Shown here in pieces: positions 360 through 12,720 of a DNA stretch of 64,000 nucleotides. The position numbers and the translations under genes are program-made. The stretch is from Acetothermia bacterium UBA3571 (GTDB lineage: Bacteria; Bipolaricaulota; Bipolaricaulia; Bipolaricaulales; Bipolaricaulaceae): NCBI GenBank assembly GCA_002375995.1, contig DFNI01000011.1:13333-77332 (forward strand), read 5' to 3'. Below the pieces are notes generated by a model. That model had not been told where the DNA came from. It was given only the letters and a program-made list of their open reading frames with translations, and made no database searches. Positions within the stretch are counted from its first letter, which is position 1. Each line of letters starts with the position of its first letter.

Positions 360-701
360 TCAGGCTCCCCTGTGGAGCACGTGATCATATCCGCAGCGGA
401 AGAGCTCCACCACGTGCTCGTCGTCGAGGGAGTAATAGATGGATTTCCCCTCCCGGCGGGTCTTCACCAGGCCCTGCATCCGGAGGATCCTCAGGTGATG
501 GGACGTGGCGGGTTGCGATATCCCTAAAAGCTGGGCGAGGTCGTGCACGCACAGTTCGCCTTGGGAGAGGAGGTAGAGGATCTTCACCCGGGTGGGATCG
601 GCGAGCACGCGGAAGGTTTCCGCCAGCCGCATGGCGGCCTCGGGATCGGGCATCTTCTTCAAGAGCTTCTCGGCTTCCTTTTCGCTCAACGCGTGATACA
701 T
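360..701 (-). CDS. ArsR/SmtB family metal-sensing repressor, CzrA-like with an alpha5 Zn/Co site
   Basis: Winged-HTH region (ADPTRVKILYLL, CVHDLAQLLGISQPATSHHL); C-terminal DEH-x10-HVLH matches the DxHx10HxxH alpha5 metal site of CzrA/SmtB; the gene is divergent from a P1B ATPase. Confidence 0.85.
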   Translation of the reverse strand: MYHALSEKEAEKLLKKMPDPEAAMRLAETFRVLADPTRVKILYLLSQGELCVHDLAQLLGISQPATSHHLRILRMQGLVKTRREGKSIYYSLDDEHVVELFRCGYDHVLHRGA

Positions 702-788: not shown

Positions 789-2939
789 ATGGTGAGCTTT
801 ATGAATCGCACCAAAAACGCGAATGCAAAGGAAACCCAGGAGTTCCGAGTGGGCACGATCCACTGCCCCTCCTGTGCCTTGCAGCTCCAGCGACGCCTCG
901 AGGCGGTACAAGGGGTGGAAGGTGCAGAAGTAAGCCTTCTCGATGGAGTGGTCCGGGTGGTCTATGACCCCAAACGCATCGGAACCCCGGAGCTCGAAAA
1001 GGCCGTGGTTACCCTCGGGGGACAGATCGTCCACCTGGAGGACCACAACCATGACCACACGGGAGATCGGCTCACCTTGATCTCGGGCGTCTTCCTCCTC
1101 GCCGGGGGCCTCGCCTACCTCGCCGGGAACGTGGTCCTGGGTAGGGTGTGGGATGTGGCCATACCCCTCTCCGGCCTCCTCTTCGGCATCGGGGCCGCCA
1201 CCGGGGGGCTGCCCGTGCTGCGGCGCGCGCTCTCGGAGCTCAAGCGGAGGCTCCTCGGCATCGACCTCCTCGTCTCCATCGCCATCATCGGCGCCCTGGC
1301 CTTGGGGGAATCCTTCGAAGCGGCAGCCCTCGCTTTTCTATTCGGGGTCGCGGAGTGGCTGGAGGAGAAGGCCGCGGCCCGGGCCCGCCGCTCCATCCGG
1401 GATCTACTGGATCGGGCCCCGAAACGTGTGACCGTGTTGCGGGAGGGCCGGGAGATCGAGCTCCCCGTGGAGGCGGTGTCTCCCGGTGAGGTGATCCTCG
1501 TCCGGCCCGGGGAAACTATCGGGCTCGACGGGGTGGTGGTCCGGGGCCGCTCCAGCGTCTCCGAGGCCCCCGTCACCGGGGAGTCCACTCCGGTGACGAA
1601 GGAGGGAGGGGACCCCGTTTACGCCGGTACCTTGAACGAAGACGGGTCGCTGGAGGTGCGGGTAATTCGCTCCGCCGGAGAGAGCACCTTGGCCCGGATC
1701 GCCGCCCTGGTGGAAGAGGCACAACACCGGAAGGCCCCGGTGGAGCGGACCGTGAACCGCTTCGCCCGCTACTATACCCCCGCCGTGGTGGGAGCGGCCG
1801 TCCTCGTGGCCGTCATTCCCACCGCCCTGGGTTTCCCTCTCCGGGACTGGATCCTTCGGGCACTGATGCTCCTCGTCATTGCCTGCCCCTGTGCCCTCGC
1901 CATCTCCACCCCGGTGTCCATGATCTCTGCTTTAGTGGCTTCGGCCAAGCGGGGGATATTGGTAAAAGGCGGCGCGGCGTTGGAGGCCATCGCGAAAGTG
2001 CGGTTCCTGGCCGTGGACAAGACCGGCACCCTCACCACCGGAGAGCTGCGAGCGGAAGTGGTGCCGCTTGACGGAACGGACACGCGGGAGATCCTAAGAG
2101 TTGCCGCGGCCCTGGAGAAAGGAAGCGAACATCCCATCGCCCGGGCTATACGGGCGCTCGCGGAAGGAGAGGATCACCTGCCGGAGGTCACAGACTTTAA
2201 GGCCCTTCCGGGCTTGGGAGTGAGGGGTAGGATCCAAGGGGAAGAGTATGTGGTGGGACGTCCCGAGCTCTTCGGGGACATGCCCCCCGCGGTGCAAAAA
2301 CTCATCTCCTCGGGGAGGAGCGTGGTGCTGGTGGGTAAGGAAAAGGGCCCCATCGGCGCGATCCTCCTCTCCGACGAGATCCGCCCCGAAGCCCGGGAGG
2401 CCATCGCGGCCACAAGGAGGTTGGGGGTGGAACCGGTTCTCCTCACCGGGGACCGGGCCCCGGTGGCCAGGGCGGTGGCCGAGGCGTTAGGAATCAAGGA
2501 GGTCCACGCCGAACTCCTTCCGGAGAAGAAGCTCTCCCTAGTGGAGGACCTCAGGAGGCGCGGTGGAGTAGCGTTCGCGGGAGATGGGATAAACGATGCC
2601 CCCGCCCTTGCAGCTGCGGACGTGGGGATCGCCATGGGCGCCATCGGGACCGACGCCGCCATCGAGGCCGGCGATGTAACGCTGATGCGCGACGACCTCC
2701 GGGATGTCCCCCGGTTGATCTCCCTGGGCCGCCGGACCCTGCGGGTAATCCGGTGGAACATTGGGATCGCCCTGGCGTTGAAGCTCGCCGTGGCCGGGTT
2801 CGCCTTCGCCGGCTTCGCTTCCCTGGCCCTGGCCGTCCTCATAGGCGATGTTGGGGGGACGTTGGTGGTCACCGGGAACGCCATGCGCCTCCAACGGCCC
2901 GTATTTGAACCGAAAAATGAGGAGGTGTCGGACGCATGA
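789..2939 (+). CDS. Heavy-metal translocating P1B-2 type ATPase (Zn2+/Cd2+/Pb2+ exporter, ZntA/CadA-like)
   Basis: N-terminal HMA-like domain with CPSC; TM6 CPC motif (IACPCALAISTP); DKTGTLT phosphorylation site; GDGINDAP; TM7 Lys (ALKLAV) and TM8 DxG (IGDVGGT) diagnostic of the Zn/Cd subgroup. A second ATG at 801 has the better SD (GGTGAG). Confidence 0.9.
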   Translation: MVSFMNRTKNANAKETQEFRVGTIHCPSCALQLQRRLEAVQGVEGAEVSLLDGVVRVVYDPKRIGTPELEKAVVTLGGQIVHLEDHNHDHTGDRLTLISGVFLLAGGLAYLAGNVVLGRVWDVAIPLSGLLFGIGAATGGLPVLRRALSELKRRLLGIDLLVSIAIIGALALGESFEAAALAFLFGVAEWLEEKAAARARRSIRDLLDRAPKRVTVLREGREIELPVEAVSPGEVILVRPGETIGLDGVVVRGRSSVSEAPVTGESTPVTKEGGDPVYAGTLNEDGSLEVRVIRSAGESTLARIAALVEEAQHRKAPVERTVNRFARYYTPAVVGAAVLVAVIPTALGFPLRDWILRALMLLVIACPCALAISTPVSMISALVASAKRGILVKGGAALEAIAKVRFLAVDKTGTLTTGELRAEVVPLDGTDTREILRVAAALEKGSEHPIARAIRALAEGEDHLPEVTDFKALPGLGVRGRIQGEEYVVGRPELFGDMPPAVQKLISSGRSVVLVGKEKGPIGAILLSDEIRPEAREAIAATRRLGVEPVLLTGDRAPVARAVAEALGIKEVHAELLPEKKLSLVEDLRRRGGVAFAGDGINDAPALAAADVGIAMGAIGTDAAIEAGDVTLMRDDLRDVPRLISLGRRTLRVIRWNIGIALALKLAVAGFAFAGFASLALAVLIGDVGGTLVVTGNAMRLQRPVFEPKNEEVSDA

Positions 2940-3994
2940 GAACGTGGTTTCTCGCCGGAAGCACCGTTCTTTTCCTGGCCTTTTTGGCTGCAGCGGGACC
3001 ATCCCTGCAGGTGGAACCCACGGTTTACCGGTTCGGCGAGGTGACGGAGGGGATCCTCGTCCGCGCGGTGTTCGTCCTAACCAATGTGGGCGATGCCCCC
3101 CTGGTTTTCCCCCGTCAACCACACACCTCCTGCGGCTGTACCAGCGCCCCGCTGCCGAAAGGGGAGCTCCTTCCCGGAGAATCGATGGAACTGGTGGTTC
3201 TCTTCGACTCCACCGGCTTCGGGGGGCGGAAGATAGCCAGGAGGGTGGAGCTTTTCTCGAACGACCCCGAGCAACCTAAACGGATTCTGTTACTGGAAGG
3301 ATACGTGCGCAAGCCCCTGCCACACGAAGCCTCGGCTTCCACCCTGTATTACGGTTTTTACCTTTTGGTGGACTTAAGATCTCCCGATGCTTACGCCCGA
3401 GGACATCTGTTGGGAGCCATCAATATCCCTCTGGAGGACCTTGAACTCTGGGCCGATCGTCTTCCCAAGGCCCTCCCCATCTATCTCTACGATGAGACCG
3501 GAGAAGGTGCCGCGGAGGCGGCACGGCTCCTGCGGGAGCGCGGGGTTGTGGTGGCCCGGGCCATTGCTGGCGGGCTCTTGGGATGGCGGGAGGAGCTTGG
3601 AGACGCTTTCTTCACTCACCCCCTTGGGGGCCCGAAAGCACCCCCTTCCGGCAAGGGGGAGGGCAAAAGCCGCGCGGTGAGCCCCCGGCGCGTGGCCAGG
3701 AACTACTACGTGATAGTGGACTTGCGCACGGTCCAAGAGTTCGCCGCCGGACACATCCCCGGCGCGTTGAACCTGACCCCTGAAGAACTCCCCACGTGGC
3801 TCGCCGCGCTTCCCCCCATCGGGGATGCAGGTGCCCTTCACATATGGCTCGTAGACGCTGACGGAACCACGGCTTGCGAGCTGGCCGCCGCGCTGCGGAA
3901 CGAGGGGTACGGGAACATCTATTGCCTCGTGGGCGGAATCGAACAGTGGAAGGCCCGCTACCCCGATCTCCTGTGGAGCGGGCCGGCCAATTGA
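2936..3994 (+). CDS. Secreted DUF1573-domain protein fused to two rhodanese (sulfurtransferase-like) domains
   Basis: Signal peptide; DUF1573-type beta-sandwich with TSCGCTS motif; two rhodanese-like modules (DLRSPDAYARGHLLGAINIP; DLRTVQEFAAGHIPGALNL; catalytic-loop-like CLVGG); the ATGA start overlaps the ATPase stop, which suggests translational coupling. Confidence 0.7.
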   Translation: MRTWFLAGSTVLFLAFLAAAGPSLQVEPTVYRFGEVTEGILVRAVFVLTNVGDAPLVFPRQPHTSCGCTSAPLPKGELLPGESMELVVLFDSTGFGGRKIARRVELFSNDPEQPKRILLLEGYVRKPLPHEASASTLYYGFYLLVDLRSPDAYARGHLLGAINIPLEDLELWADRLPKALPIYLYDETGEGAAEAARLLRERGVVVARAIAGGLLGWREELGDAFFTHPLGGPKAPPSGKGEGKSRAVSPRRVARNYYVIVDLRTVQEFAAGHIPGALNLTPEELPTWLAALPPIGDAGALHIWLVDADGTTACELAAALRNEGYGNIYCLVGGIEQWKARYPDLLWSGPAN

Positions 3995-4027: not shown

Positions 4028-5158
4028 GTGATTAATAAAATAGTACATACCTGGACCGTTTTGGGCGCGCTTCTGGTTGGTTTTCTCCCAGCCCTAGGGG
4101 TGGAACTGGTTTTCTTCTATGATCCCGGATGTCCGCACTGTGCCCGCATCGATGCCTTCCTCGCAGAAATAGGGCCCGATTATCCGGAGCTCCAGGTAGT
4201 TCGCTTCAACATCCGGGAGCCCCAGGCCAGGGAGATATTGGAGAAGCTCCTCGTCGCCTACGGTGTGGAACTTGGCCCAGTGCCGCTGATATTTGTAGGG
4301 GATGTGGCCTTAGTCGGGGACACCTTCTACGGGCTGGAAGAGGAGCCGGTGACCCTCCACGGGCGGGCCGGGGAGATGGCCTTGGAGGAAGCGATTCAGC
4401 GGGCCATCGCGGAAGGGGCCCCCTCTCCCTTAGCGCGGGCGGAGGGGGTCCAGGGCCGCGACTTGGCCGAAAAGCTCACCTTGCCCGCTGTCCTCGTGGC
4501 CGCGGCGGTGGACTCGGTGAACCCTTGTTGTTTCGCGATCCTCATATTCCTTTTCGGCGCTTTGCTCGTCGCAGGGCGGCGGCGCCGGATCCTTCCCATC
4601 GGGCTTTCCTTCCTTTCCGCCATTTACATCTCGTACTTCCTCATGGGGCTTGGGGTCTATTCGGCTATCCAAGCCGCCGGGGTGCAGTACTACTTCATCC
4701 TTTCCGTCTCGATCCTCGCGGTACTCATGGGGGTGTGGTCCATCAAGGACTACTTCGCCCACGGGAAGTGGTTCAGCCTCGAGGTTCCCCAGCGCTGGCG
4801 CCCCCTCTTGAAGCGGCTCACCGCGTCGGTGGTTTCTGTCCCTGGGGCATTTGCTATCGGGATCCTGGACTCCCTCTTTCTCCTTCCCTGTTCGTCGGGT
4901 CCCTATATCGCCATATTGGCGCTTATTTCCCGGACGACCACCAGGGCCCAGGGGATTCTTTACCTCCTCCTCTACAACCTGGTCTTCGTCCTCCCCCTTC
5001 TCATCCTCACCCTGGGGGTACACTTCGGTTTTACCACCACCGCCCGGGCGGAGCGGTGGCGTGCCCAACGGGTGCAGAAGCTACATCTCGTTTCGGGAGC
5101 GGTGATGGTTCTCCTGGGAATTGGAATGATCGTGGCCCTCCAGCTCGGTTACGTTTGA
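4028..5158 (+). CDS. Thioredoxin-like domain (CPHC) fused to a CcdA/DsbD-type transmembrane thiol-disulfide transporter
   Basis: N-terminal periplasmic Trx-like domain with FYDPGCPHCARI; C-terminal multi-TM domain with NPCCFAIL and LLPCSSGPY, typical of CcdA/DsbD electron-transfer cysteines. Confidence 0.75.
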   Translation: MINKIVHTWTVLGALLVGFLPALGVELVFFYDPGCPHCARIDAFLAEIGPDYPELQVVRFNIREPQAREILEKLLVAYGVELGPVPLIFVGDVALVGDTFYGLEEEPVTLHGRAGEMALEEAIQRAIAEGAPSPLARAEGVQGRDLAEKLTLPAVLVAAAVDSVNPCCFAILIFLFGALLVAGRRRRILPIGLSFLSAIYISYFLMGLGVYSAIQAAGVQYYFILSVSILAVLMGVWSIKDYFAHGKWFSLEVPQRWRPLLKRLTASVVSVPGAFAIGILDSLFLLPCSSGPYIAILALISRTTTRAQGILYLLLYNLVFVLPLLILTLGVHFGFTTTARAERWRAQRVQKLHLVSGAVMVLLGIGMIVALQLGYV

Positions 5159-5232: not shown

Positions 5233-5409
5233 TCAGCCGCAGCAGCCGTGGCTTTCCTCGGGAAGGTAGCGTTCGGGGTCCTTCTCAAAAGCTTCTTTAC
5301 AGCTCGGCCCGCAGAAGTGGTAGGTTTTCCCCTTGTACTCCACTGCCTCCGTGGCCGTGTTGGGATCCACCTCCATACCACACACGGGATCCCGGACCTT
5401 GTCCGCCAT
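5233..5409 (-). CDS. Small YHS/TRASH-domain metal-binding protein (58 aa), below the track's 60-aa cutoff
   Basis: Manual translation: MADKVRDPVCGMEVDPNTATEAVEYKGKTYHFCGPSCKEAFEKDPERYLPEESHGCCG; YHS consensus DPVCGM...YxFCxxxC; RBS GGAGGTGAGGAGAG upstream. Confidence 0.6.
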   Translation of the reverse strand: MADKVRDPVCGMEVDPNTATEAVEYKGKTYHFCGPSCKEAFEKDPERYLPEESHGCCG

Positions 5410-6114
5410 CTCTCCTCACCTCCTTTTCCTCGATGATGGCCGTTCCCCGTTCCCGGGGCCGCCTCGCCAACACGAACCCCATCCCCACAACGTAGGCGAA
5501 ATATACAACGAGGGAAGGGGCGGGGTTGTGGCCGAAGAGGGAGGATGGGAAGCGCCCCGGGGCGGAGGAGCTCGGGAGGATCGGGTTCAGATCCCACAGG
5601 CGTTCCACCGCCGTGGGGAGGACCGCCGCCTCCTGGAGCCCGTGTACCCCGCGGGCGAGAAATCCCGCGGCCACGAAGAGCAGAAGCCACGAGGTGCCGG
5701 TGAAGAACGCGGAGGGCTTTGCCCGGAGGCCGAGGGCGTAGATCCCCCAACCCAATAGCACGGCCACGCCGATACCCGAGCTCCTCGACCAACGCCCCCG
5801 TGCCCCCAGTTTGGAACGCGGCCGCGCTCAAGAAGAGGACCGTTTCCACGCCCTCCCTTGCCGCGACCACGAAGGAGAACCCGAACAGCCCCCCATCCTC
5901 CGAAGATCTCCTCAGCCCGGCCTTCCAGGGCGACCCCCGCGGCGCCCACCGCCGGGCCCACGGCGAGGCTCGTGGCGACGGCTCCCGGGAGCCCTCACCA
6001 GGCCCATTTGATCAGCTCGTGCTGTCCAAGCCTCCGCAGGGCGACGACCAGCACGCCCAAGATGAGAGCGGCCTCGAGCCCTTCCCTGAGGCCGATCGAG
6101 AAAGCTGCGGCCAC
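5410..6114 (-). pseudogene. Degraded EfeU/FTR1-family iron permease gene (in-frame stop, internal deletion and at least two frameshifts)
   Basis: GTG start at 6114 with RBS GAAAGGAG. The N-terminus VAAAFSIGLREGLEAALILGVLVVALRRLGQHELIKWAW then hits TGA. The second RExxE motif (AAREGVETVLFLSAAFQTGG) lies in a different frame (track ORF 5031..5870). The C-terminal TMs (AFFTGTSWLLLFVAAGFLARGVHGLQEA) lie in a third frame (ORF 5297..5767). About 45 aa are missing between the motifs relative to E. coli EfeU. Confidence 0.55.
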
Positions 6115-6361
6115 GGGTCTCCTTTCGCTCCGAACGGAGTGATATCAAAACACATTCGCATTTTATGCTCGGCGGGAGGGGTAACAACCCTTCCTAGGAA
6201 GTTCCGTGGCCTCTGAATGCAAACTACATCAATAATTTTGGAGCATGCACAGATAAAAATGTCTCCATACAATCTCCACGATCTCTTCATCCTCTCTCCA
6301 CAGCCGTCCAGGAGAATTCCCCTGACCCAATGCGCTACAGCGGAAATCTGGAGGTGATGGA

Positions 6362-7000
6362 ATGGCTCATAGAGGTCGGGCCGTCGGTGTTCTCTTTTTT
6401 ACTGCGTTTTCCGTGTTCGTGGCACTCTTCCCCGTCGCGGCACAGAGCCAGTTACTGGACGAGCTCCGTGCCGAGCTGATACCCGGGGAAGGCGCGAAAA
6501 CTTCCTACGGACTCCCACTGTCCCTCGATAACATCCAGACCTTTGCCGATTGGTACTACTCCATCCAACTGTCTCCGGAGGAGAAGGAGATCTTCCGGGA
6601 AGCCCTTTCGGCCATTCCCGCCCCTTGCTGCGACGACAACCCGGTACTCAAATGCTGTTGCCAGAAAACGAACCGCATCTGTAACCTCACCCGCTCGGCC
6701 ATGGGGCTCGGAGCGTGGCTCATCCACGAAAAGGGCTTTACTGCCGAGGAGACCAAAGCCGCGGTGGAGGAGTGGCTCCGTTTCCTGAGGCCCCAGTACT
6801 ACCTCGCCTTGGCCCTGGAGGAGAGGGGCCTCGATCCCCGGGAATACGGCCTCAAGGAACACGAGGCTTACGAGTCCTGCGATCAAAAGCTCTGCGAGGT
6901 CCCACTGGACGCGGGCGGGTGCGGTGGAATGGGCCTTAAAGTGCTTTTGAAGGAAAAAGAGGAGGTTCCCGCTTGCTGCCGCGCCGAAGGGGGCCAATAA
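6362..7000 (+). CDS. Secreted cysteine-rich protein of unknown family, paralog 1 (PCCDD / CCC / ICNL / CxxxLCE / GGCGGMG motifs)
   Basis: Signal peptide (VFVALFPVAAQSQ); nine Cys conserved with the downstream paralog; no recognisable domain. Confidence 0.6.
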   Translation: MAHRGRAVGVLFFTAFSVFVALFPVAAQSQLLDELRAELIPGEGAKTSYGLPLSLDNIQTFADWYYSIQLSPEEKEIFREALSAIPAPCCDDNPVLKCCCQKTNRICNLTRSAMGLGAWLIHEKGFTAEETKAAVEEWLRFLRPQYYLALALEERGLDPREYGLKEHEAYESCDQKLCEVPLDAGGCGGMGLKVLLKEKEEVPACCRAEGGQ

Positions 7001-7017
7001 TGGAGCGGTGATACCCT

Positions 7018-7653
7018 ATGCCCAAGGGCGTGGAAAAGAGGAAGTCAAGGAGAAAGGGAATGATCAAATTGATCGTGTTGGCGGGACTAGGAGTGTTGGC
7101 GGTGGGGCTCGTGTTCCTCCTCATGCCCCATGGGTCGAACTCCGCGGACGCCGAGGAGATTTCCCTAGCAGAGCTCGAAGCGGAGGTGATTCCCCCGGTG
7201 GGGAAGGAGACTGCATACGGGATCCCCCTTTCCTGGAACAACGCCCAGACCTTCGCCGACTGGTACTACGAGGTCCGGCTCTCCCCAGAAGAGTCGGCCC
7301 TACTTCAGCGAGCCCTGAAGGAAATTCCTACCCCCTGTTGCGACGATACCCGGATCACGCGGTGCTGCTGTGAGCGCTCAGGGTACATCTGCAACCTCGT
7401 GAGGAGCGCCCGGGGGCTCGCAGCGTGGCTCATCCGGGAGAAGGGCTTTGGGGAAGGAGAGGTACGGGAGGCGGTGCTCGAGTGGGTGCGGTTCGCCCAC
7501 CGCAAATACTTCCTCGCCCTCGCGCTAAAGGATCGGGGGGTGAACCCGACGAAATACGGTCTCACCACCAAAGGGGCTTGTTATCGGCAGCTGTGCGAGC
7601 GCCCCATGCGGGAGGGAGGCTGCGGCGGGATGGGTGAGCGAGTGGAGATTTAA
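7018..7653 (+). CDS. Secreted or membrane-anchored cysteine-rich protein of unknown family, paralog 2
   Basis: The same nine-Cys pattern (PCCDDTRITRCCCERSGYICNL, CYRQLCE, GGCGGMG) and a shared TFADWYY motif; likely start at MIKLIV (7060); a rho-independent terminator follows. Confidence 0.6.
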   Translation: MPKGVEKRKSRRKGMIKLIVLAGLGVLAVGLVFLLMPHGSNSADAEEISLAELEAEVIPPVGKETAYGIPLSWNNAQTFADWYYEVRLSPEESALLQRALKEIPTPCCDDTRITRCCCERSGYICNLVRSARGLAAWLIREKGFGEGEVREAVLEWVRFAHRKYFLALALKDRGVNPTKYGLTTKGACYRQLCERPMREGGCGGMGERVEI

Positions 7654-7684
7654 TCGGAACCCTCAGAACCCCCTTCCGATATAG

Positions 7685-7716
7685 GCGCCGGCCTTCACCG
7701 CCGGCGCTTTTTCTTC
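7685..7716 (+). terminator. Rho-independent terminator (GGCGCCGGC-loop-GCCGGCGC followed by TTTTTCTT)
   Basis: GC-rich hairpin and T-tract seen directly after the second Cys-rich gene. Confidence 0.6.
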
Positions 7717-7800
7717 ACGGAAACTCCACACGAGCTTCCTTGAACTTTCATCGAGATGGTTTAAAGTGAAAATACGTTTAAAAATCGAAAGGAGAGCACA

Positions 7801-8187
7801 GTGGCCAACTACAGTTACCGGAAGACCGTGAGCCTCCCCTTCGGGGAGGTGGTGGAAAAAGTCAAAGATTCCCTGGCCAAGGAGGGCTTCGGGATCCAAG
7901 CCGAGATCGACCTCGCCCGGGCCATGCGGGAGAAACTCGGGGTGAAGTTCGAGGACTACGTGATCCTCGCCGCCTGCAACCCTCAGCTCGCCCACAGGGC
8001 CCATGCCGCCGAGACGGACGTGGGACTGCTTCTTCCGTGCCACGTCATCGTTTACCGTGACGGAGACACGGTCCGCATCGCCGTGGCCCGGCCCACCGTG
8101 GTGCTGGGGGTCGCAGGGAACCCGGAGCTCATGCGGGTGGCCCAGGAGGCCGAGATCCAGCTCATCCAGGCCCTGGACGCAGCTTGA
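7801..8187 (+). CDS. DUF302 domain protein
   Basis: ILAACNPQLA and LLPCHVIVY motifs are characteristic of DUF302; GTG start with RBS GAAAGGAGAG; an AT-rich putative promoter (TTGAAC-16-TAAAGT) lies upstream. Confidence 0.8.
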   Translation: MANYSYRKTVSLPFGEVVEKVKDSLAKEGFGIQAEIDLARAMREKLGVKFEDYVILAACNPQLAHRAHAAETDVGLLLPCHVIVYRDGDTVRIAVARPTVVLGVAGNPELMRVAQEAEIQLIQALDAA

Positions 8188-8374: not shown

Positions 8375-9007
8375 ATGGCCGCCGAGACCGCCCGTAGACG
8401 CTATGACCCTATCGCCCCGGTTTACGATCTCTTGCAGTGCCCGATGGGACGGGCCTCCGCCTCTTGGCGGAAGCGGCTCTGGGCTGAGGCAAAAGGCCCT
8501 CGCCTCCTCGAGGCCGGGGTGGGAACGGGACGCAATTTTCCGTTTTACCCCAACTCGGCCAAGATCACCGCGGCGGACATAAGTCCCCGGATGCTCGCCC
8601 GGGCGAGGGCCCGCGCCTCCCGCATGGACCTTGAGGTTGAGCTCCGGGAGATGGACATTCAGTCCCTGGGTTACCCCGATAACAGCTTCGATTCCGCCGT
8701 CTCTAGCTTCGTGTTCTGTTCGGTGCCCGACCCCGTGCGGGGGCTTAAGGAGCTCGCCCGGGTGGTGAAGCCCGGAGGAAGGATAGTCCTTCTTGAGCAC
8801 GTACGTCCCCGGGGGCGGGTGCTCGGGCGGCTCTTCGACTTCCTTACCCCCTTGGTGGTGCGGCTTTTCGGATTCCGCCTGAACCGGCGGACCGTGGAGA
8901 ACGTCCGCCGCGCCGGGCTTAAGCTGGAGAGGGTTGATTACCTCGATCGGGTGGGGATCGTGAAGCTGATCGTGGCCCGCCCGCACAAGGAGGTGGACGA
9001 TGGCTGA
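8375..9007 (+). CDS. Class I SAM-dependent methyltransferase (UbiE/Methyltransf_11-like)
   Basis: Motif I LEAGVGTGRNF, acidic loop ITAADISPRM, and motif post-I/II region VKPGGRIVLLEH. Confidence 0.8.
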   Translation: MAAETARRRYDPIAPVYDLLQCPMGRASASWRKRLWAEAKGPRLLEAGVGTGRNFPFYPNSAKITAADISPRMLARARARASRMDLEVELREMDIQSLGYPDNSFDSAVSSFVFCSVPDPVRGLKELARVVKPGGRIVLLEHVRPRGRVLGRLFDFLTPLVVRLFGFRLNRRTVENVRRAGLKLERVDYLDRVGIVKLIVARPHKEVDDG

Positions 9008-9374
9008 GGTGAAGGAAAGGCCGGTGGGGGCGTTCGTACTGTCGCTCCTTGCCGGGATCTGGATGGTGGGCGCAGGACTCATGATATACCGTTGGAGCGG
9101 CACCACGTCTTGGATGTGGGGCCACGGGATGATGGGCGGATACCTCGGGTGGGGTCGGTTGCCCTGGTTGGGCTTGATTTTCGGGATCGTGGTCCTCGTC
9201 GGGGCAATCGCTATTTACCTTAGGCCCGACAAAACCTCAGGTTGGGGTATCGCCATCCTGGTGGCCTCCGCCGTGAACGTCCTCTTCGGCATGGGAGGGC
9301 TGCTCGCAGGACTTCTGGGGATCGCGGGTGGAGCGTGGGCCATCGCCTGGAGGCCGGGAGAAGGTGGTGATTGA
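9000..9374 (+). CDS. Hypothetical integral membrane protein (3-4 TM, Trp/Gly-rich)
   Basis: Hydrophobic segments; overlaps the start of the downstream Cu ATPase, which suggests co-transcription. Confidence 0.5.
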
Positions 9375-11611
9375 TCATGGCGGTGAAGGATCCGGTATGC
9401 GGGATGGAGCTCGAGGCGGCCTCGGCCGCCGAGACCCGGGAGTTCCGGGGAAAGACCTACTACTTCTGCTCCTCCTCCTGCGCAGATAAGTTCGATAAAG
9501 AGCCGGAAAAGTACGCCGGTGCCCCTGGTGGAGGCCATGAACACGGGGAGCACGCTGGGCACAGTGGACACGAACATCACGAGTACAAGGCCCATGAGGG
9601 CCACGCCGGCCATGCCAAACACGAAGGCATGGGCCACGGGGAACACGGGCACCACGACCATCACGCCCACCACGCCCAGATGGTGGCTGACTTCCGCCGC
9701 CGGTTCTGGGTCTCCCTAGGCCTCACTGTCCCCATCCTGCTTTTGTCTCCCCTGATCCAAAAATTCTTGGGCCTCCCCAAGGCTTTGGCCTTCCCGGGAG
9801 CTCCCTACCTCCAGCTCGTCCTCGCCTCCGCGGTCTACTTCTATGGCGGCTGGCCCTTCCTCAAGGGCATGTGGGATGAGCTCAGAAAAAAGCAGCCGGG
9901 GATGATGACCCTGATCGCCCTGGCCATCTCGGTGGCCTACGTGTACTCCGCCGCGGTGGTCCTAGGCCTTGCGGGCCAGGTCTTCTTCTGGGAGCTGGCC
10001 ACATTGATCGACGTGATGCTCCTTGGGCACTGGATCGAGATGCGGTCGGTGTTGGGCGCGTCCAAGGCGCTGGAGGAGCTCGCACGCCTCATGCCTTCTA
10101 CCGCCCACCTCCTTAAGGATGGAACGGTGGAGGACGTTCCCATCGAGGTCCTGAAACCCGGCGATCGGGTGCTGGTGAAACCGGGAGAAAAGATCCCCGT
10201 GGACGGCATCGTGATCGAGGGGCGCACCACGGTGAACGAGTCCATGCTCACCGGGGAGTCCCGGCCAGTGGAAAAAGGCGAGGGCGATGAGGTGATCGGC
10301 GGTGCGGTGAACGGGGAGTCGGCCATCACCGTGGAGGTCAAGCGCACCGGGGACGAGACGTATCTCGCGCAAGTGATCGATCTCGTGAGGAAGGCCCAGG
10401 AAGCCCGCTCCAAGACCCAGGACCTCGCCAACCGGGCGGCCCTGTGGCTCACTATCATCGCCCTCGGCGGAGGTGTGGCCACACTCCTCGGGTGGCTGGG
10501 GGCTGGGAAGGATTTCAACTTCGCCCTCACCCGGATGGTCACGGTAATGGTGATTGCCTGCCCGCACGCGCTGGGGCTTGCGATCCCGTTGGTGGTCTCG
10601 GTGTCCACTGCCATCGCCGCCCGGCGTGGGTTCCTCATCCGAGATCGCACCGCCTTCGAGCGGGCGCGCGGGCTTCAGGCAGTGGTGTTCGACAAAACCG
10701 GCACCCTCACCCTGGGCCAGTTCGGGGTCACCGACGTGGTGGCCTTCTCCGAGCTCCCCGAGGAAGAAGTGCTGCGGCTCGCAGCGGCGGTGGAGTCACG
10801 CTCCGAGCACCCCATAGCAGCGGGGATCGTGGCCGCCGCCAAAGAACGGAAGATCGAGATCCCCGAACCCCAGGACGTGAAGGCCATCCCCGGCCGGGGT
10901 GTCGAGGGAAAGCTGGACGGAGAGCCGATCATGGTGGTGAGCCCGAGCTACCTCGCCGAGCAGGGACACGATCCCGACGACCCCCGGGTGGCAGAACTCG
11001 CCTCCCAGGGGAAGACGGTGGTCTACCTCTTGGTGGACGGGAAACCCATAGGGGCCATCGCCCTCGCGGACATGATCCGGCCCGAGTCCCGGGAGGCGGT
11101 GGAGAAGCTAAAGGGGATGGGCATCAAGGTCATGATGCTCACCGGAGACGCCGAAGAGGTGGCCAAGTGGGTGGCCGGCGAGTTGGGCCTCGACCACTAC
11201 TTCGCCCAGGTCCTCCCCCACGAGAAGGCCGAGGTGATCAAGAAGGTGAAGGCTCAAGGGCTTACCGTGGCCATGGTGGGGGACGGGGTGAACGACGCGC
11301 CGGCCCTGGTGGAGGCCGATGTGGGCATTGCCATCGGAGCAGGGACCGATGTGGCCATCGAGTCGGCGGACATCGTGCTCGTGCGCAACGATCCCCGGGA
11401 CATCGCGGCGGTTATCAGCCTCGCCCGGGCCACCTACGGGAAGATGGTCCAGAACCTGGGTTGGGCCACGGGCTACAACTCCTTCGCCATCCCCATGGCC
11501 GCCGGAGCTCTGTACCCGGTGGGGGTGCTGCTTTCGCCGGCGTTGGGGGCGGCGCTGATGGCCCTTTCCACGGTGATCGTGGCCATCAACGCCCGCCTGC
11601 TCAAGGGGTGA
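9371..11611 (+). CDS. copB: Copper-translocating P1B-3 type ATPase (CopB-like) with an N-terminal YHS domain and His-rich stretch
   Basis: N-terminal DPVCGMELE...[12 protein letters not shown] (YHS); His-rich region ([46 protein letters not shown]); TM6 CPH motif ([12 protein letters not shown]); DKTGTLT; GDGVNDAP; TM8 MALST. Confidence 0.9.
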
Positions 11612-12058: not shown

Positions 12059-12472
12059 ATGGAGTATCTGACGGTGGGACAATTGGCGGAGCGGGCAGGG
12101 GTGAAGAGATCTGCCCTGCGTTACTACGAGCGGCGAGGCCTTCTCCTCCCAGCACGGCGAAGCCCATCCGGTTACCGCCTGTACCTGCCCGACGCTGTGT
12201 CCACCGTGGTGTTCATAAAGAGGGCCCAGGGTCTCGGCTTCTCCCTGGGCGAGATCGCAGAGCTCCTCGCATTGCGCCGTGCCCCAGCTCTCCCGCGGGA
12301 TCGGGTGCGCATGCTGGCTGCGGAAAAGCTCCAAGAAGTAAGGCGAAGGATCGCGGCCCTGCGGGAGCTTGAAGCGGCTTTGGAAGGACTCCTCGAGGCC
12401 TGTGAGAGGTCCGGGGATCCCCGCAGTTGTCCCATTCTCTCGGCATTGGAAGTAATAAGGAGATGCGATTGA
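12059..12472 (+). CDS. MerR family metal-responsive transcriptional regulator, CueR-like
   Basis: N-terminal HTH (LTVGQLAERAGVKRSALRYYERRGLL), a coiled-coil dimerisation helix, and a C-terminal CERSGDPRSCP (C-x8-C-P) metal-binding loop resembling CueR. Confidence 0.85.
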   Translation: MEYLTVGQLAERAGVKRSALRYYERRGLLLPARRSPSGYRLYLPDAVSTVVFIKRAQGLGFSLGEIAELLALRRAPALPRDRVRMLAAEKLQEVRRRIAALRELEAALEGLLEACERSGDPRSCPILSALEVIRRCD

Positions 12473-12720
12473 TCGAGATCTTCAGCGCGGGTTGCCCGGT
12501 CTGTGAGGAAATTGTCAAGCGGATCAGCGAGATCGGCTGCGACGCCCGTGAGATTCGTGTCCTTGACATGCGCGATCCCCAGGTGGCCCAGCGAGCGAAT
12601 GAGTTGGGGATCCGGGCGGTCCCGGCGGTAGTGATCGACGGGAAGCTCGCCGACTGTTGTGCCGACGCTGGACCGGATCTAGCCACCCTCAGAAGCCTGG
12701 TCCCGGGCCGCGAGAAATAG
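12463..12720 (+). CDS. Small thioredoxin-fold protein (Thioredoxin_3/glutaredoxin-like, CPVC active site)
   Basis: IEIFSAGCPVCEE active-site motif; about 85 aa; overlaps the MerR stop; the start is ATG 12463 or TTG 12469 (the RBS AAGGAG lies 6 nt before the TTG). Confidence 0.7.
   Translation: MRLIEIFSAGCPVCEEIVKRISEIGCDAREIRVLDMRDPQVAQRANELGIRAVPAVVIDGKLADCCADAGPDLATLRSLVPGREK

What the first reader, a model, noticed from the sequence alone, without database searches (positions are those of the whole stretch)
6362..7653. Tandem paralogous secreted nine-cysteine proteins of an unrecognised family inside a metal-resistance island
Two adjacent genes (212 and 211 aa) encode signal-peptide proteins. 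They share about 40% identity and a strictly conserved cysteine pattern: PCCDD, six residues, CCC, then ICNL, CxxxLCE and GGCGGMG. They also share a TFADWYY motif. I cannot place them in any described domain family. They lie between a YHS protein plus FTR1 permease remnant and a DUF302 gene, inside a block of Zn/Cd and Cu ATPases. A Trx-CcdA reductant exporter and periplasmic rhodanese domains are encoded a few kb upstream. Those proteins could keep such cysteine clusters reduced or load sulfur onto them. I consider this pair the best candidate for a novel periplasmic metal-binding or metallochaperone system.
Basis: partly seen in the sequence, partly recalled or inferred. Interest (0 to 1): 0.8.

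Follow-up and report, generated by a model that had tools for sequence, protein, structure and literature searches.

The report
Undescribed exported nine-cysteine protein family
Two neighbouring genes encode exported proteins of a previously undescribed family with nine invariant cysteines that, across several uncultured bacterial phyla, sits next to heavy-metal export pumps and thiol-reductant exporters, making it a good candidate for a new envelope metal-handling protein, although no biochemistry exists yet.

The parts
6246..6273 (+). Promoter-like site (TGCACA-16 nt-TACAAT) for the A-B operon
   Evidence: Consensus scan found 2 sites against 0.3 expected. The -10 region CCTCCATACAATCTCCAC is conserved upstream of A-type genes in L011 and L039. 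This is a prediction only.
6362..7000 (+). Gene A: A-type family member, 212 aa, with a signal peptide, the nine family cysteines and a C-terminal PACC pair
   Evidence: ORF. GGAGGTG Shine-Dalgarno 5 nt upstream. 63-65% identical to A-type orthologs that also precede a B-type gene in L003 and L005. Clade 3 in the clustering, always paired. 11 Cys.
7060..7653 (+). Gene B: B-type family member, 197 aa from ATG 7060 (211 aa if from ATG 7018), with an N-terminal membrane anchor and nine cysteines
   Evidence: ORF. AAGGAG 6 nt before 7060. Homolog P0001 is 99% identical and starts at the equivalent Met. AlphaFold2 pLDDT 91.9, pTM 0.82, TM helix 2-20 followed by an all-alpha domain. Clade 4.
7683..7719 (+). 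Intrinsic terminator closing the A-B operon
   Evidence: Stem of 10 pairs (8 G-C), 7-nt loop and a T-run. Perfect 8-nt inverted repeat GCGCCGGC/GCCGGCGC.
4028..5158 (+). Trx-CcdA fusion (CPHC thioredoxin-like N-domain plus DsbD_TM), the probable source of reducing equivalents for A and B
   Evidence: Pfam DsbD_TM; the CPHC motif is read from the translation. Homologous CcdA/DsbD genes lie directly downstream of family genes in at least 13 other loci, including A-B-CcdA operons in L019, L036 and L042. The functional link is inferred.
2936..3994 (+). Exported DUF1573 protein with two rhodanese domains, both lacking the catalytic cysteine
   Evidence: Pfam DUF1573 and two rhodanese stretches. Asp replaces the active-site Cys in both domains when aligned with the fused catalytic rhodaneses. 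It belongs to the island; its role relative to A and B is uncertain.
789..2939 (+). P1B-2 (Zn/Cd/Pb-type) heavy-metal ATPase of the island
   Evidence: Pfam E1-E2_ATPase and HMA. NCBIfam TIGR01512, cadmium-family, 496 bits, above its cutoff.
9371..11611 (+). Copper-type P1B ATPase with an N-terminal YHS domain and a His-rich stretch (CPH motif)
   Evidence: Pfam YHS and E1-E2_ATPase. NCBIfam TIGR01511, copper-translocating, 626 bits. The CPH motif and His-rich stretch are read from the translation.
5236..5409 (-). Small intact YHS-domain gene (about 58 aa, ending HGCCG), divergent from A
   Evidence: tblastn with YHS proteins from L005 and L001: 61% identity over 61 aa, E 5e-22.
5297..6114 (-). 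FTR1-type iron permease gene broken by frameshifts (a pseudogene, or assembly indels)
   Evidence: The N-terminal fragment carrying the REGLE motif ends in a stop. The C-terminal part in another frame matches Pfam FTR1 positions 167-214.
360..701 (-). ArsR/SmtB-family regulator at the edge of the island
   Evidence: Pfam HTH_5, E 7e-22. It has a syntenic counterpart in L001.

Best explanation
A and B are a secreted (A-type) and a membrane-anchored (B-type) paralog of an undescribed superfamily. Members are Sec- or lipoprotein-exported all-alpha domains of about 150 residues, with nine invariant cysteines (CC, CCC, C-N, C, C, GGCGGM), an invariant Asn and an invariant Trp.

Working model: they are extracytoplasmic polythiol metal-handling proteins.
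1. The protein is exported unfolded and folds outside the cytoplasmic membrane.
2. Its cysteines are kept as free thiols by electrons passed from the cytoplasm through a dedicated CcdA/DsbD protein. In this window that is the Trx-CcdA fusion at 4028-5158.
3. The clustered thiolates, together with the invariant Met, capture thiophilic metal ions released at the outer face of the membrane by P1B ATPases. The metal is most likely Cu(I), possibly also Ag, Cd or Zn.
4. The protein buffers or sequesters the metal, or in diderm lineages passes it to a CusA/CzcA-type pump.

The A-B pair is a lineage-specific duplication and may act as a soluble plus anchored pair.

Shown here: the genes, the family and its conservation, the export signals, the operon structure, the enrichment of neighbours and the fusions. 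Inferred: metal binding, the identity of the metal, electron flow from CcdA, and any A-B interaction.
For: **Family and conservation**
- 213 close and 580 more distant homologs, all named hypothetical, none with a Pfam domain.
- An exhaustive profile search finds 199 representatives at 50% identity.
- The two tiers are one superfamily: hhalign probability 99.96%, E 6.5e-39.
- Nine Cys, N112, G119, W142 and GGCGGM are at least 97% conserved in 120 sequences, and 88% of 308 members have exactly nine domain cysteines.

**Export**
- 95% have an N-terminal hydrophobic segment, 37 have a lipobox-like motif, and only 1.3% have a Tat-like motif.

**Metal link, recurring in independent lineages**
- Copper-type P1B ATPases with CopZ-like HMA domains lie divergently 150-240 nt upstream in at least 9 loci.
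- A P1B ATPase lies on the same strand 80 nt or less away in L079, L084, L088, L129 and L172, overlaps the gene end to end in L158, and lies 248 nt away in L148.
- A CusA/CzcA RND pump lies directly upstream in L083, L108, L116, L124 and L059.
- A pump is within 3 kb of 46%, 16% and 25% of non-redundant genes in the three subgroups.
- A pump or YHS gene is within 3 kb in 17/84 family loci against 0/36 chance-match loci from the same scan, Fisher p=0.0013.

**Reductant link**
- A CcdA/DsbD gene lies on the same strand, 250 nt or less downstream, in at least 13 loci.
- In an unbiased census of 149 neighbouring ORFs, thioredoxin-like and DsbD_TM are the most frequent Pfam families.

**Precedent**
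- DsbD-like ScsB feeds the Cu+-binding ScsC in copper and redox stress (PMC10907172).
Against: - There is no biochemical evidence of metal binding.
- The pump association is partial. Clades 2 and 6 of Bipolaricaulota, about half of the single-copy members, sit next to TAtT/ABC or lipoylation genes with no metal genes within 8 kb.
- Bipolaricaulota loci share ancestry, so their synteny counts are not fully independent.
- In compact tier 2 the CcdA/DsbD link is nearly absent, 1 of 51.
- The one fusion to an HMA-like domain (P0186) scores just below Pfam's threshold and lacks the CxxC metal site.
- The rhodanese fusions and neighbouring sulfur-metabolism genes point as much to sulfur chemistry as to metals.
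Confidence: 0.5

Rival explanations
1. The proteins are thiol-disulfide oxidoreductases, the terminal reductase or isomerase of a CcdA/DsbD pathway, in the manner of Scs or CcmH. They repair envelope cysteines oxidised under copper stress, or reduce a specific exported substrate, and do not hold metal themselves.
For: - CcdA/DsbD and TlpA-like genes are the most consistent immediate neighbours in tier 1 and the intermediate group.
- Tier-2 members contain C-C-P-C, which reads as a CxxC.
- Scs and DsbDEG systems link copper stress to such reductases (PMC10907172; bioRxiv 10.1101/2020.08.17.255257, title and abstract).
Against: - Profile-profile comparison with CcmH is non-significant, probability 2% or less.
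- The CxxC spacing is destroyed in the Bipolaricaulota tier, which has CCCx6CN.
- Nine invariant cysteines are far more than a redox pair needs.
- The direct operon position behind CusA/CzcA pumps is more typical of metal-binding accessory proteins.
Confidence: 0.2
2. The proteins are extracytoplasmic sulfane-sulfur (persulfide or polysulfide) carriers. A rhodanese loads sulfur onto a flexible Gly-flanked cysteine (GGCGGM), and the CcdA/DsbD pathway releases or recycles it. One possible outcome is precipitation of exported metals as sulfides.
For: - Three independent fusions have the order signal, family domain, rhodanese with an intact CRxGxR-type active site: P0123, P0131 and L096.
- An exported rhodanese-domain protein is encoded in the window's island and in syntenic islands.
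- The invariant GGCGG(M) resembles the C-terminal GGCGG of SoxY, whose cysteine carries the sulfur substrate (PMC6067878).
- Genes resembling cysteine desulfurase or cysteine synthase (PALP) are adjacent in some lineages.
Against: - Both rhodanese domains beside this pair have Asp instead of the catalytic Cys.
- A rhodanese is within 3 kb of only 7 of 54 tier-1 genes and 1 of 19 intermediate genes, and none was detected near compact tier-2 genes.
- SoxY is a beta-sandwich with the motif at its very C-terminus (my own knowledge). Here the fold is all-alpha and the motif lies 6-25 residues from the end.
- The cysteine desulfurase and PALP neighbours are cytoplasmic enzymes and may simply reflect conserved synteny.
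Confidence: 0.15
3. The protein is a disulfide-rich structural or envelope protein with a housekeeping role unrelated to metals. Its proximity to metal and redox genes reflects inherited synteny or island hitch-hiking.
For: - Single-copy members in complete or long Bipolaricaulota contigs lie beside lipoylation, TAtT, SecDF and other housekeeping genes.
- Where a whole chromosome was examined (L001, L002), only one copy was found by the searches that brought those loci in, as expected of a core gene.
- The number of cysteines is odd but mostly pairable.
Against: - The metal-pump association recurs in lineages whose family proteins are under 45% identical, with different pump types and different gene orders.
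- It is absent from 36 control loci.
- Dedicated reductant exporters next to the gene argue for reduced thiols, not oxidised ones.
- Vicinal CC and CCC runs are poor disulfide formers (general knowledge).
Confidence: 0.08
4. The protein is an iron-sulfur or other cofactor-bearing redox protein exported in folded form.
For: There are many clustered invariant cysteines and a confident compact fold.
Against: - Only 4 of 308 members carry a Tat-like twin-arginine motif, and many are lipoproteins or Sec substrates, so the domain crosses the membrane unfolded.
- No match to any Fe-S family in Pfam.
Confidence: 0.03

Closest known systems
ScsB-ScsC (and DsbD-dependent CueP) copper-stress thiol systems of Enterobacteria
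   Same: A dedicated DsbD/CcdA-type membrane electron transporter is encoded next to an exported cysteine-bearing partner, and the system is genetically tied to copper stress. ScsC and ScsB are described as Cu+-binding thiol oxidoreductases (PMC10907172). Here CcdA/DsbD lies directly downstream of the family gene in at least 13 loci, and copper-type ATPases lie beside it.
   Different: ScsC and CueP are not homologous to this family. ScsC has a thioredoxin fold with one CxxC (my own knowledge). This family is all-alpha with nine invariant cysteines and no Pfam match.
Periplasmic metallochaperones encoded inside efflux operons (CusF in cusCFBA; CopC, CopK, CzcE)
   Same: A small exported protein is encoded within or directly behind a heavy-metal efflux operon. 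The family gene follows a CusA/CzcA pump gene in L083, L108, L116, L124 and L059, and P1B ATPases in L079, L084, L129 and L158.
   Different: CusF and CopC are beta-barrel or cupredoxin-like proteins that use Met, His and Trp ligands (my own knowledge; reviewed in PMC7558416, which I listed but did not read in detail). This family is helical and cysteine-based, which needs a reducing supply outside the cell.
CcmH (PF03918), periplasmic thiol reductase of cytochrome c maturation
Cysteine-cluster copper proteins: CopG (CxCC, tetranuclear Cu cluster) and Csp1 copper storage protein
   Same: These are exported proteins in which several cysteine thiolates bind multiple Cu(I) ions and which are associated with copper resistance or storage. 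This comparison rests on my own knowledge; CopG and its tetranuclear cluster are mentioned in papers listed.
   Different: No homology was detected: no Pfam match to DUF411/CopG or DUF326/Csp. CopG has a thioredoxin-like fold, and Csp1 is a Tat-exported four-helix bundle with cysteines spaced along the helices (my own knowledge). Here the cysteines sit mostly in loops as vicinal CC and CCC runs, and export is Sec-type.
SoxY sulfur-carrier protein (C-terminal GGCGG)
   Same: A cysteine flanked by glycines on both sides. In SoxY this cysteine covalently carries the sulfur substrate (PMC6067878). Both are extracytoplasmic, and CcdA-type reductant pathways and rhodanese-like proteins occur around both systems (the Sox side from my own knowledge).
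   Different: SoxY is a beta-sandwich and its motif is the extreme C-terminus (my own knowledge). Here the fold is all-alpha, the motif is followed by 6-25 more residues, and eight further invariant cysteines exist.

Membership tests
The new nine-cysteine superfamily, as defined here | N-terminal Sec signal, lipobox or TM anchor, followed by P-C-C, x5-7, C-C-C, x1-6, C-N, ...G-L...W...C-x4-C...G-G-C-G-G-M | tested here: met
   Both window proteins carry every invariant position. A and B fall in clades 3 and 4 of the family. hhalign between the two tiers gives E 6.5e-39.
CcmH / NrfF / CycL (PF03918) | Match to the family HMM or profile | tested here: not met
   No Pfam hit at E<=1 for A, B or 78 homologs. 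hhalign against a CcmH alignment gives probability 0.5-2%. The CcmH profile was shallow (Neff 1.8), so very remote homology is not excluded.
CcmH / NrfF / CycL (PF03918) | LRCxxC active-site motif between helix 1 and helix 2 | tested here: not met
   The window proteins have PCCDD and CCCx6CN, with no CxxC. Only tier-2 relatives have C-C-P-C.
CcmH / NrfF / CycL (PF03918) | Three-helix-bundle periplasmic fold | tested here: inconclusive
HMA / CopZ-type metallochaperones (PF00403) | Ferredoxin-like beta-alpha-beta-beta-alpha-beta fold with a GMxCxxC loop | tested here: not met
   No Pfam HMA hit in A or B. The model is all-alpha.
Thioredoxin-fold envelope proteins (ScsC, DsbC/G, TlpA, CopG) | Thioredoxin fold with a CxxC or CxCC motif | tested here: not met
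   No thioredoxin-type Pfam hit. DSSP on the models shows helices only, apart from two single-residue bridges.
Copper storage proteins Csp1/Csp3 (DUF326) | Four-helix bundle lined with Cys; Pfam DUF326 match; Tat signal for Csp1 | tested here: not met
Metallothioneins | Under about 100 aa, 15-30% Cys, no stable secondary structure without metal | tested here: not met
   About 5% Cys (9 of 197 residues in B, 11 of 212 in A), and a confidently predicted helical domain with pLDDT 95-99 over the core.
SoxY | Ig-like beta-sandwich with GGCGG as the C-terminal residues | tested here: not met
   The fold is all-alpha. GGCGGM is followed by 6-25 residues. Only the local motif resembles SoxY (PMC6067878).
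PCYCGC-motif proteins (Pfam PF13798; considered from memory as a possible relative) | Match to the PF13798 HMM | tested here: not met
   No hit at E<=1 for A, B, 78 homologs, or the remote CGCxH-type variants P0218 and P0253.
Functional class: extracytoplasmic metal-binding protein | Binds metal ions with defined stoichiometry and affinity | not testable with these tools
   This needs purified protein with ICP-MS, competition assays and spectroscopy. Only genomic association is available.

The most novel reading that the evidence does not exclude
The family is the core of a previously unknown extracytoplasmic metal-sulfur chemistry. It would be a polythiol scaffold that combines sulfane sulfur, delivered by a fused or partner rhodanese, with Cu(I) or other soft metals expelled by P1B or RND pumps, using electrons from a dedicated CcdA/DsbD. 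The product would be a protein-bound metal-sulfide cluster or an insoluble metal sulfide outside the cell. That would be a detoxification or cofactor-assembly route with no characterised counterpart, built on a new fold.
Probability: 0.12. Interest if true: 0.85.

Novelty: new variant of a known kind. Interest (0 to 1): 0.6.

Why it matters
Envelope handling of copper and other soft metals is understood mainly from Proteobacteria, through CusF, CopC, CueP, Scs and CopG. This would add a non-homologous, cysteine-based solution on a new fold. It is widespread in uncultured phyla: Bipolaricaulota, plus MAGs labelled Thermoanaerobaculia and Elusimicrobia.

The family comes with its own reductant supply and is sometimes fused to a sulfurtransferase. 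That makes the coupling of thiol redox, sulfur transfer and metal efflux outside the cytoplasm directly testable with a small soluble domain of about 150 residues.

It also gives a sequence signature with which several hundred 'hypothetical' proteins in metal-resistance islands could be grouped and annotated.

Tried and rejected
- **The search for related loci with the family alignment** failed because no stretch was conserved enough. I replaced it with degenerate DNA motif scans.
- **HMA fusion P0186 as Rosetta-stone evidence.** I downgraded it: the HMA score is just under Pfam's threshold and the CxxC site is missing.
- **Link to Pfam PCYCGC or any other DUF:** none, including for the remote variants.
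- **Tat export or Fe-S cofactor:** rejected, 1.3% Tat-like motifs.
- **Operator search upstream of A:** only a short palindrome, CAGGAGAATTC/GAATTCCCCTG, and a conserved -10 region. No convincing regulator site was found.
- **Literature searches** for any description of the family in Bipolaricaulota/Acetothermia or in copper, DsbD or rhodanese contexts found nothing relevant.
- **Cys-Cys distances** could not be measured because model coordinates are not exposed to scripts.
Full report
**1. Observation**

The window contains two same-strand ORFs at 6362-7000 (212 aa, gene A) and 7018-7653 (211 aa, gene B).

Gene A has a GGAGGTG Shine-Dalgarno 5 nt upstream. For gene B, the ATG at 7060 has a better ribosome-binding site (AAGGAG, 6 nt upstream) than the ATG at 7018. 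It is also where the 99%-identical database homolog P0001 starts. B is therefore probably 197 aa.

All the reported motifs are present. The DNA motif for CC-DD-x5-CCC occurs exactly twice in 64 kb and never in 100 shuffles. There are three small corrections:
- Five residues, not six, separate PCCDD from CCC.
- A has eleven cysteines: the shared nine plus a C-terminal PACC pair.
- A looks like a cleaved signal-peptide protein, whereas B has an N-terminal anchor helix.

The pair forms its own transcription unit. A promoter-like site lies at 6246-6273, and its -10 region is conserved in two relatives. A strong intrinsic terminator lies at 7683-7709.

**2. Surroundings in the window**

Pfam and NCBIfam confirm the island:
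- ArsR (360-701, minus strand).
- A Zn/Cd-type P1B ATPase (789-2939).
- An exported DUF1573 protein with two rhodanese domains (2936-3994).
- A Trx-CcdA fusion (4028-5158).
- Genes A and B.
- DUF302 (7801-8187).
- A SAM methyltransferase (8375-9007).
- A membrane protein with no Pfam match (9000-9374).
- A copper-type P1B ATPase with a YHS domain and a His-rich N-terminus (9371-11611).
- MerR (12059-12472).

Immediately upstream of A, on the other strand, are an intact 58-aa YHS gene (5236-5409) and an FTR1 permease gene broken by frameshifts.

Both rhodanese domains of the DUF1573 protein have Asp where catalytic rhodaneses have Cys.

**3. The family**

Neither protein, nor any of 78 aligned homologs, matches a Pfam or NCBIfam model. 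A family profile finds no PDB sequence even at E<=10.

The large protein database holds 213 close homologs, all 'hypothetical'. Those that are named come from Candidatus Bipolaricaulota (Acetothermia) MAGs. A motif scan of GTDB species representatives finds 43 loci, almost all in Bipolaricaulota/Acetothermia MAGs, and eight of them carry tandem pairs.

An exhaustive profile search of 1.84 billion representatives finds 199 proteins, only 17 of them below E 1e-30. The rest form a more distant tier of 580 clusters at 90% identity, in MAGs labelled Thermoanaerobaculia, Elusimicrobia or unclassified. The two tiers are one superfamily (hhalign probability 99.96%, E 6.5e-39). The Bipolaricaulota tier has a 5-residue insert between CCC and CN, and an 18-residue helix insert. 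An intermediate group bridges the two.

Across 120 diverse sequences, the nine cysteines, N112, G119, W142 and G-G-C-G-G-M are at least 97% conserved. Of 308 full-length members:
- 95% have an N-terminal hydrophobic signal or anchor.
- 37 have lipobox-like motifs.
- 88% have exactly nine domain cysteines.
- Only 1.3% have a Tat-like motif.

The domain is therefore exported unfolded, by the Sec or lipoprotein pathway.

**4. Structure**

AlphaFold2 with the family alignment gives a very confident model of B: pLDDT 91.9, pTM 0.82, a TM helix followed by an all-alpha domain. An independent tier-2 model (P0142) reaches pLDDT 82.9.

I treat this as a marginal resemblance of a three-helix core, not as membership. 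The AFDB library was unavailable, and model coordinates could not be inspected.

**5. Comparative context**

Clustering the Bipolaricaulota proteins gives six clades.

| Clade | Type | Context |
|---|---|---|
| 3 | A-type: signal peptide, PxCC tail | Found next to a B-type gene wherever the locus is long enough; 63-65% identical to window A in L003 and L005. The A-B pair is an old, conserved duplication |
| 4 | B-type | Paired with A-type, or single near an ATPase |
| 3, 4 and 5 | | Divergent from a copper-type ATPase with CopZ-like HMA domains, 150-240 nt away |
| 1, 4 and 5, plus the intermediate group | | Followed on the same strand, within 250 nt, by CcdA/DsbD. Includes compact copA, divergent A-B-ccdA modules in L019 and L042 (in L036 the ATPase hit was not placed within 1.5 kb) |
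| 2 and 6 | | No metal genes nearby. Clade 6 lies directly upstream of a lipoyl-domain/LplA/radical-SAM cluster. Clade 2 lies near TAtT or FtrD-like/ABC genes |

In the distant tier, the gene sits at the end of OEP-CusB/CzcB-CusA/CzcA operons (L059, L083, L108, L116, L124). It also lies directly beside P1B ATPases (L079, L084, L088, L129, L158, L172).

**6. Statistics**

A metagenome motif scan returned 120 loci. Of these, 84 encode true family members and 36 are chance matches that serve as controls.

| Marker within 3 kb | Family loci | Control loci | Fisher p |
|---|---|---|---|
| Metal pump or YHS gene | 17/84 | 0/36 | 0.0013 |
| Pump, YHS or DsbD/CcdA | 21/84 | 0/36 | 0.0002 |

Only about 2.9 kb of flank was available per locus, so these are lower bounds.

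For genes made non-redundant at 85% identity, within 3 kb:

| Subgroup | Metal pump | Thiol-redox gene |
|---|---|---|
| Tier 1 | 46% | 31% |
| Intermediate | 16% | 26% |
| Compact tier 2 | 25% | 2% |

An unbiased Pfam census of 149 neighbouring ORFs ranks AhpC-TSA/Redoxin/Thioredoxin and DsbD_TM first, ahead of ABC transporters, RND pumps and P-type ATPases.

Caveat: loci within one phylum share ancestry, so the counts are not fully independent. The strength of the argument lies in recurrence with different pump types and gene orders in lineages whose family proteins are under 45% identical.

**7. Fusions**

Three representatives (P0123, P0131 and the L096 protein) have the order signal/TM, family domain, rhodanese, with an intact CR(A/S/K)GxR(S)-type loop. 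In L096 the fusion gene lies between a full-length DsbD and a TlpA-like thioredoxin.

One protein (P0186) has an N-terminal HMA-like domain. It scores just under Pfam's threshold and lacks CxxC, so I give it little weight.

**8. Interpretation**

What is shown:
- A conserved, exported, cysteine-rich domain with a new fold.
- A dedicated reductant exporter frequently encoded beside it.
- A statistically supported, lineage-independent association with pumps for thiophilic metals, mostly copper-type.
- Occasional fusion to a sulfurtransferase.

The most economical mechanism is an extracytoplasmic polythiol protein. CcdA/DsbD keeps its thiols reduced, and it binds metal, probably Cu(I), emerging from the pumps. 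It then buffers, sequesters or hands on the metal. This works like the ScsB-ScsC or CueP logic (PMC10907172) and like CusF-type operon accessories, but on an unrelated scaffold. I put this at about 0.5.

Rivals:
- A pure thiol reductase or repair enzyme, 0.2. This fits the DsbD/TlpA neighbours and the CcmH-like core.
- A sulfane-sulfur carrier, 0.15. This fits the rhodanese fusions and the SoxY-like Gly-flanked cysteine (PMC6067878). It is weakened here because the island's own rhodanese domains lack the catalytic Cys.
- A structural disulfide protein unrelated to metals, 0.08.
- An exported Fe-S protein, 0.03.

**9. Novelty and verdict**

No paper in the searchable library describes the family, and no curated model covers it. 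The general role I infer, an envelope accessory protein of metal resistance, is a known kind. The protein family, the fold, the nine-cysteine signature, the dedicated CcdA/DsbD and the rhodanese fusions are new. I therefore class it as a new variant of a known kind.

The novelty, the metal-island association and the reductant link hold up and generalise. Metal binding remains an inference. The local rhodanese 'sulfur-loading' idea fails for this island, and part of the family lives outside metal contexts.

Interest is 0.6. It is a concrete, experimentally tractable lead in uncultured phyla, but it rests so far on genomic inference alone.

Noticed in passing
window 5297-6114 (minus strand): An FTR1-type iron permease gene is split over several reading frames. 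The N-terminal fragment 'VAAAFSIGLREGLEAALILGVL...' ends in a stop, and the C-terminal part matches Pfam FTR1 in another frame. It is either a pseudogene or an assembly indel artefact.
   Followed up: partly
window 5236-5409 (minus strand): An intact small YHS-domain gene (about 58 aa) ends in HGCCG, so it has its own vicinal cysteine pair. It lies divergent from gene A, and similar 59-74-aa YHS genes recur in related islands (L001, L005, L011).
   Followed up: partly
window 2936-3994: Both rhodanese domains of the exported DUF1573 protein carry Asp in place of the catalytic Cys (YLYDETGEG, WLVDADGTT). The DUF1573 part contains an SCGCT motif. The function of this Asp-type exported rhodanese pair, co-transcribed with a Zn/Cd ATPase and Trx-CcdA, is unknown.
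   Followed up: partly
window 12059-12720: The MerR-family regulator gene (12059-12472) overlaps the start of a 97-aa thioredoxin/glutaredoxin-like gene (12427-12720) with a CPVC motif and a C-terminal ADCC.
   Followed up: partly
window 9000-9374: A 124-aa Gly/Trp/Met-rich membrane protein with no Pfam match lies between the methyltransferase and the Cu-type ATPase. tblastn finds counterparts at the same position in L001, L011-L013 and L024.
   Followed up: no
L008:8695-11175, also L009, L010, L015, L026, L028, L041, L046, L049: Clade-6 family members lie 65-75 nt upstream, on the same strand, of a 77-aa lipoyl/biotinyl-domain protein, two LplA-like ligase genes and a radical-SAM gene. The layout recalls the lipoate-assembly clusters described for sulfur oxidisers (PMC6067878). 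A conserved divergent 222-aa protein with no Pfam match lies on the other side.
   Followed up: partly
L138:4157-5314(-), L085:5639-6631(-): In the intermediate subgroup, a cysteine-desulfurase-like gene (Aminotran_5) or a ThiI/PP-loop plus NFACT-R_2 protein lies directly upstream of the family gene. A cysteine-desulfurase-like gene lies within 3 kb of 4 of 19 non-redundant genes.
   Followed up: partly
L003-L007, L038, L051 (e.g. L005:6310-7362): A PALP (cysteine-synthase-like) gene lies between the divergent copper ATPase and the A-B pair in one Bipolaricaulota lineage. It is found near 9 of 54 non-redundant tier-1 genes.
   Followed up: no
P0218, P0253 and similar proteins: These are still more remote relatives with a reduced cysteine set (CxxCC or PCC, then CGC-x-H, and a C-terminal GGC). 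They retain the 'IPxxGxxTxYG' N-terminal segment and the helical core. None matches a Pfam family.
   Followed up: partly
L059:6871-9039: Between the CusA/CzcA pump gene and the family gene lie a P-II protein and two small unannotated genes (68 and 167 aa), with a 154-aa unannotated gene downstream of the family gene. The same set recurs in L060.
   Followed up: no
L011:4283-4678(-): A 131-aa protein encoded just downstream of the two-HMA CopA-type ATPase gives a weak DUF2703 match (E 3e-4, below the Pfam cutoff).
   Followed up: no
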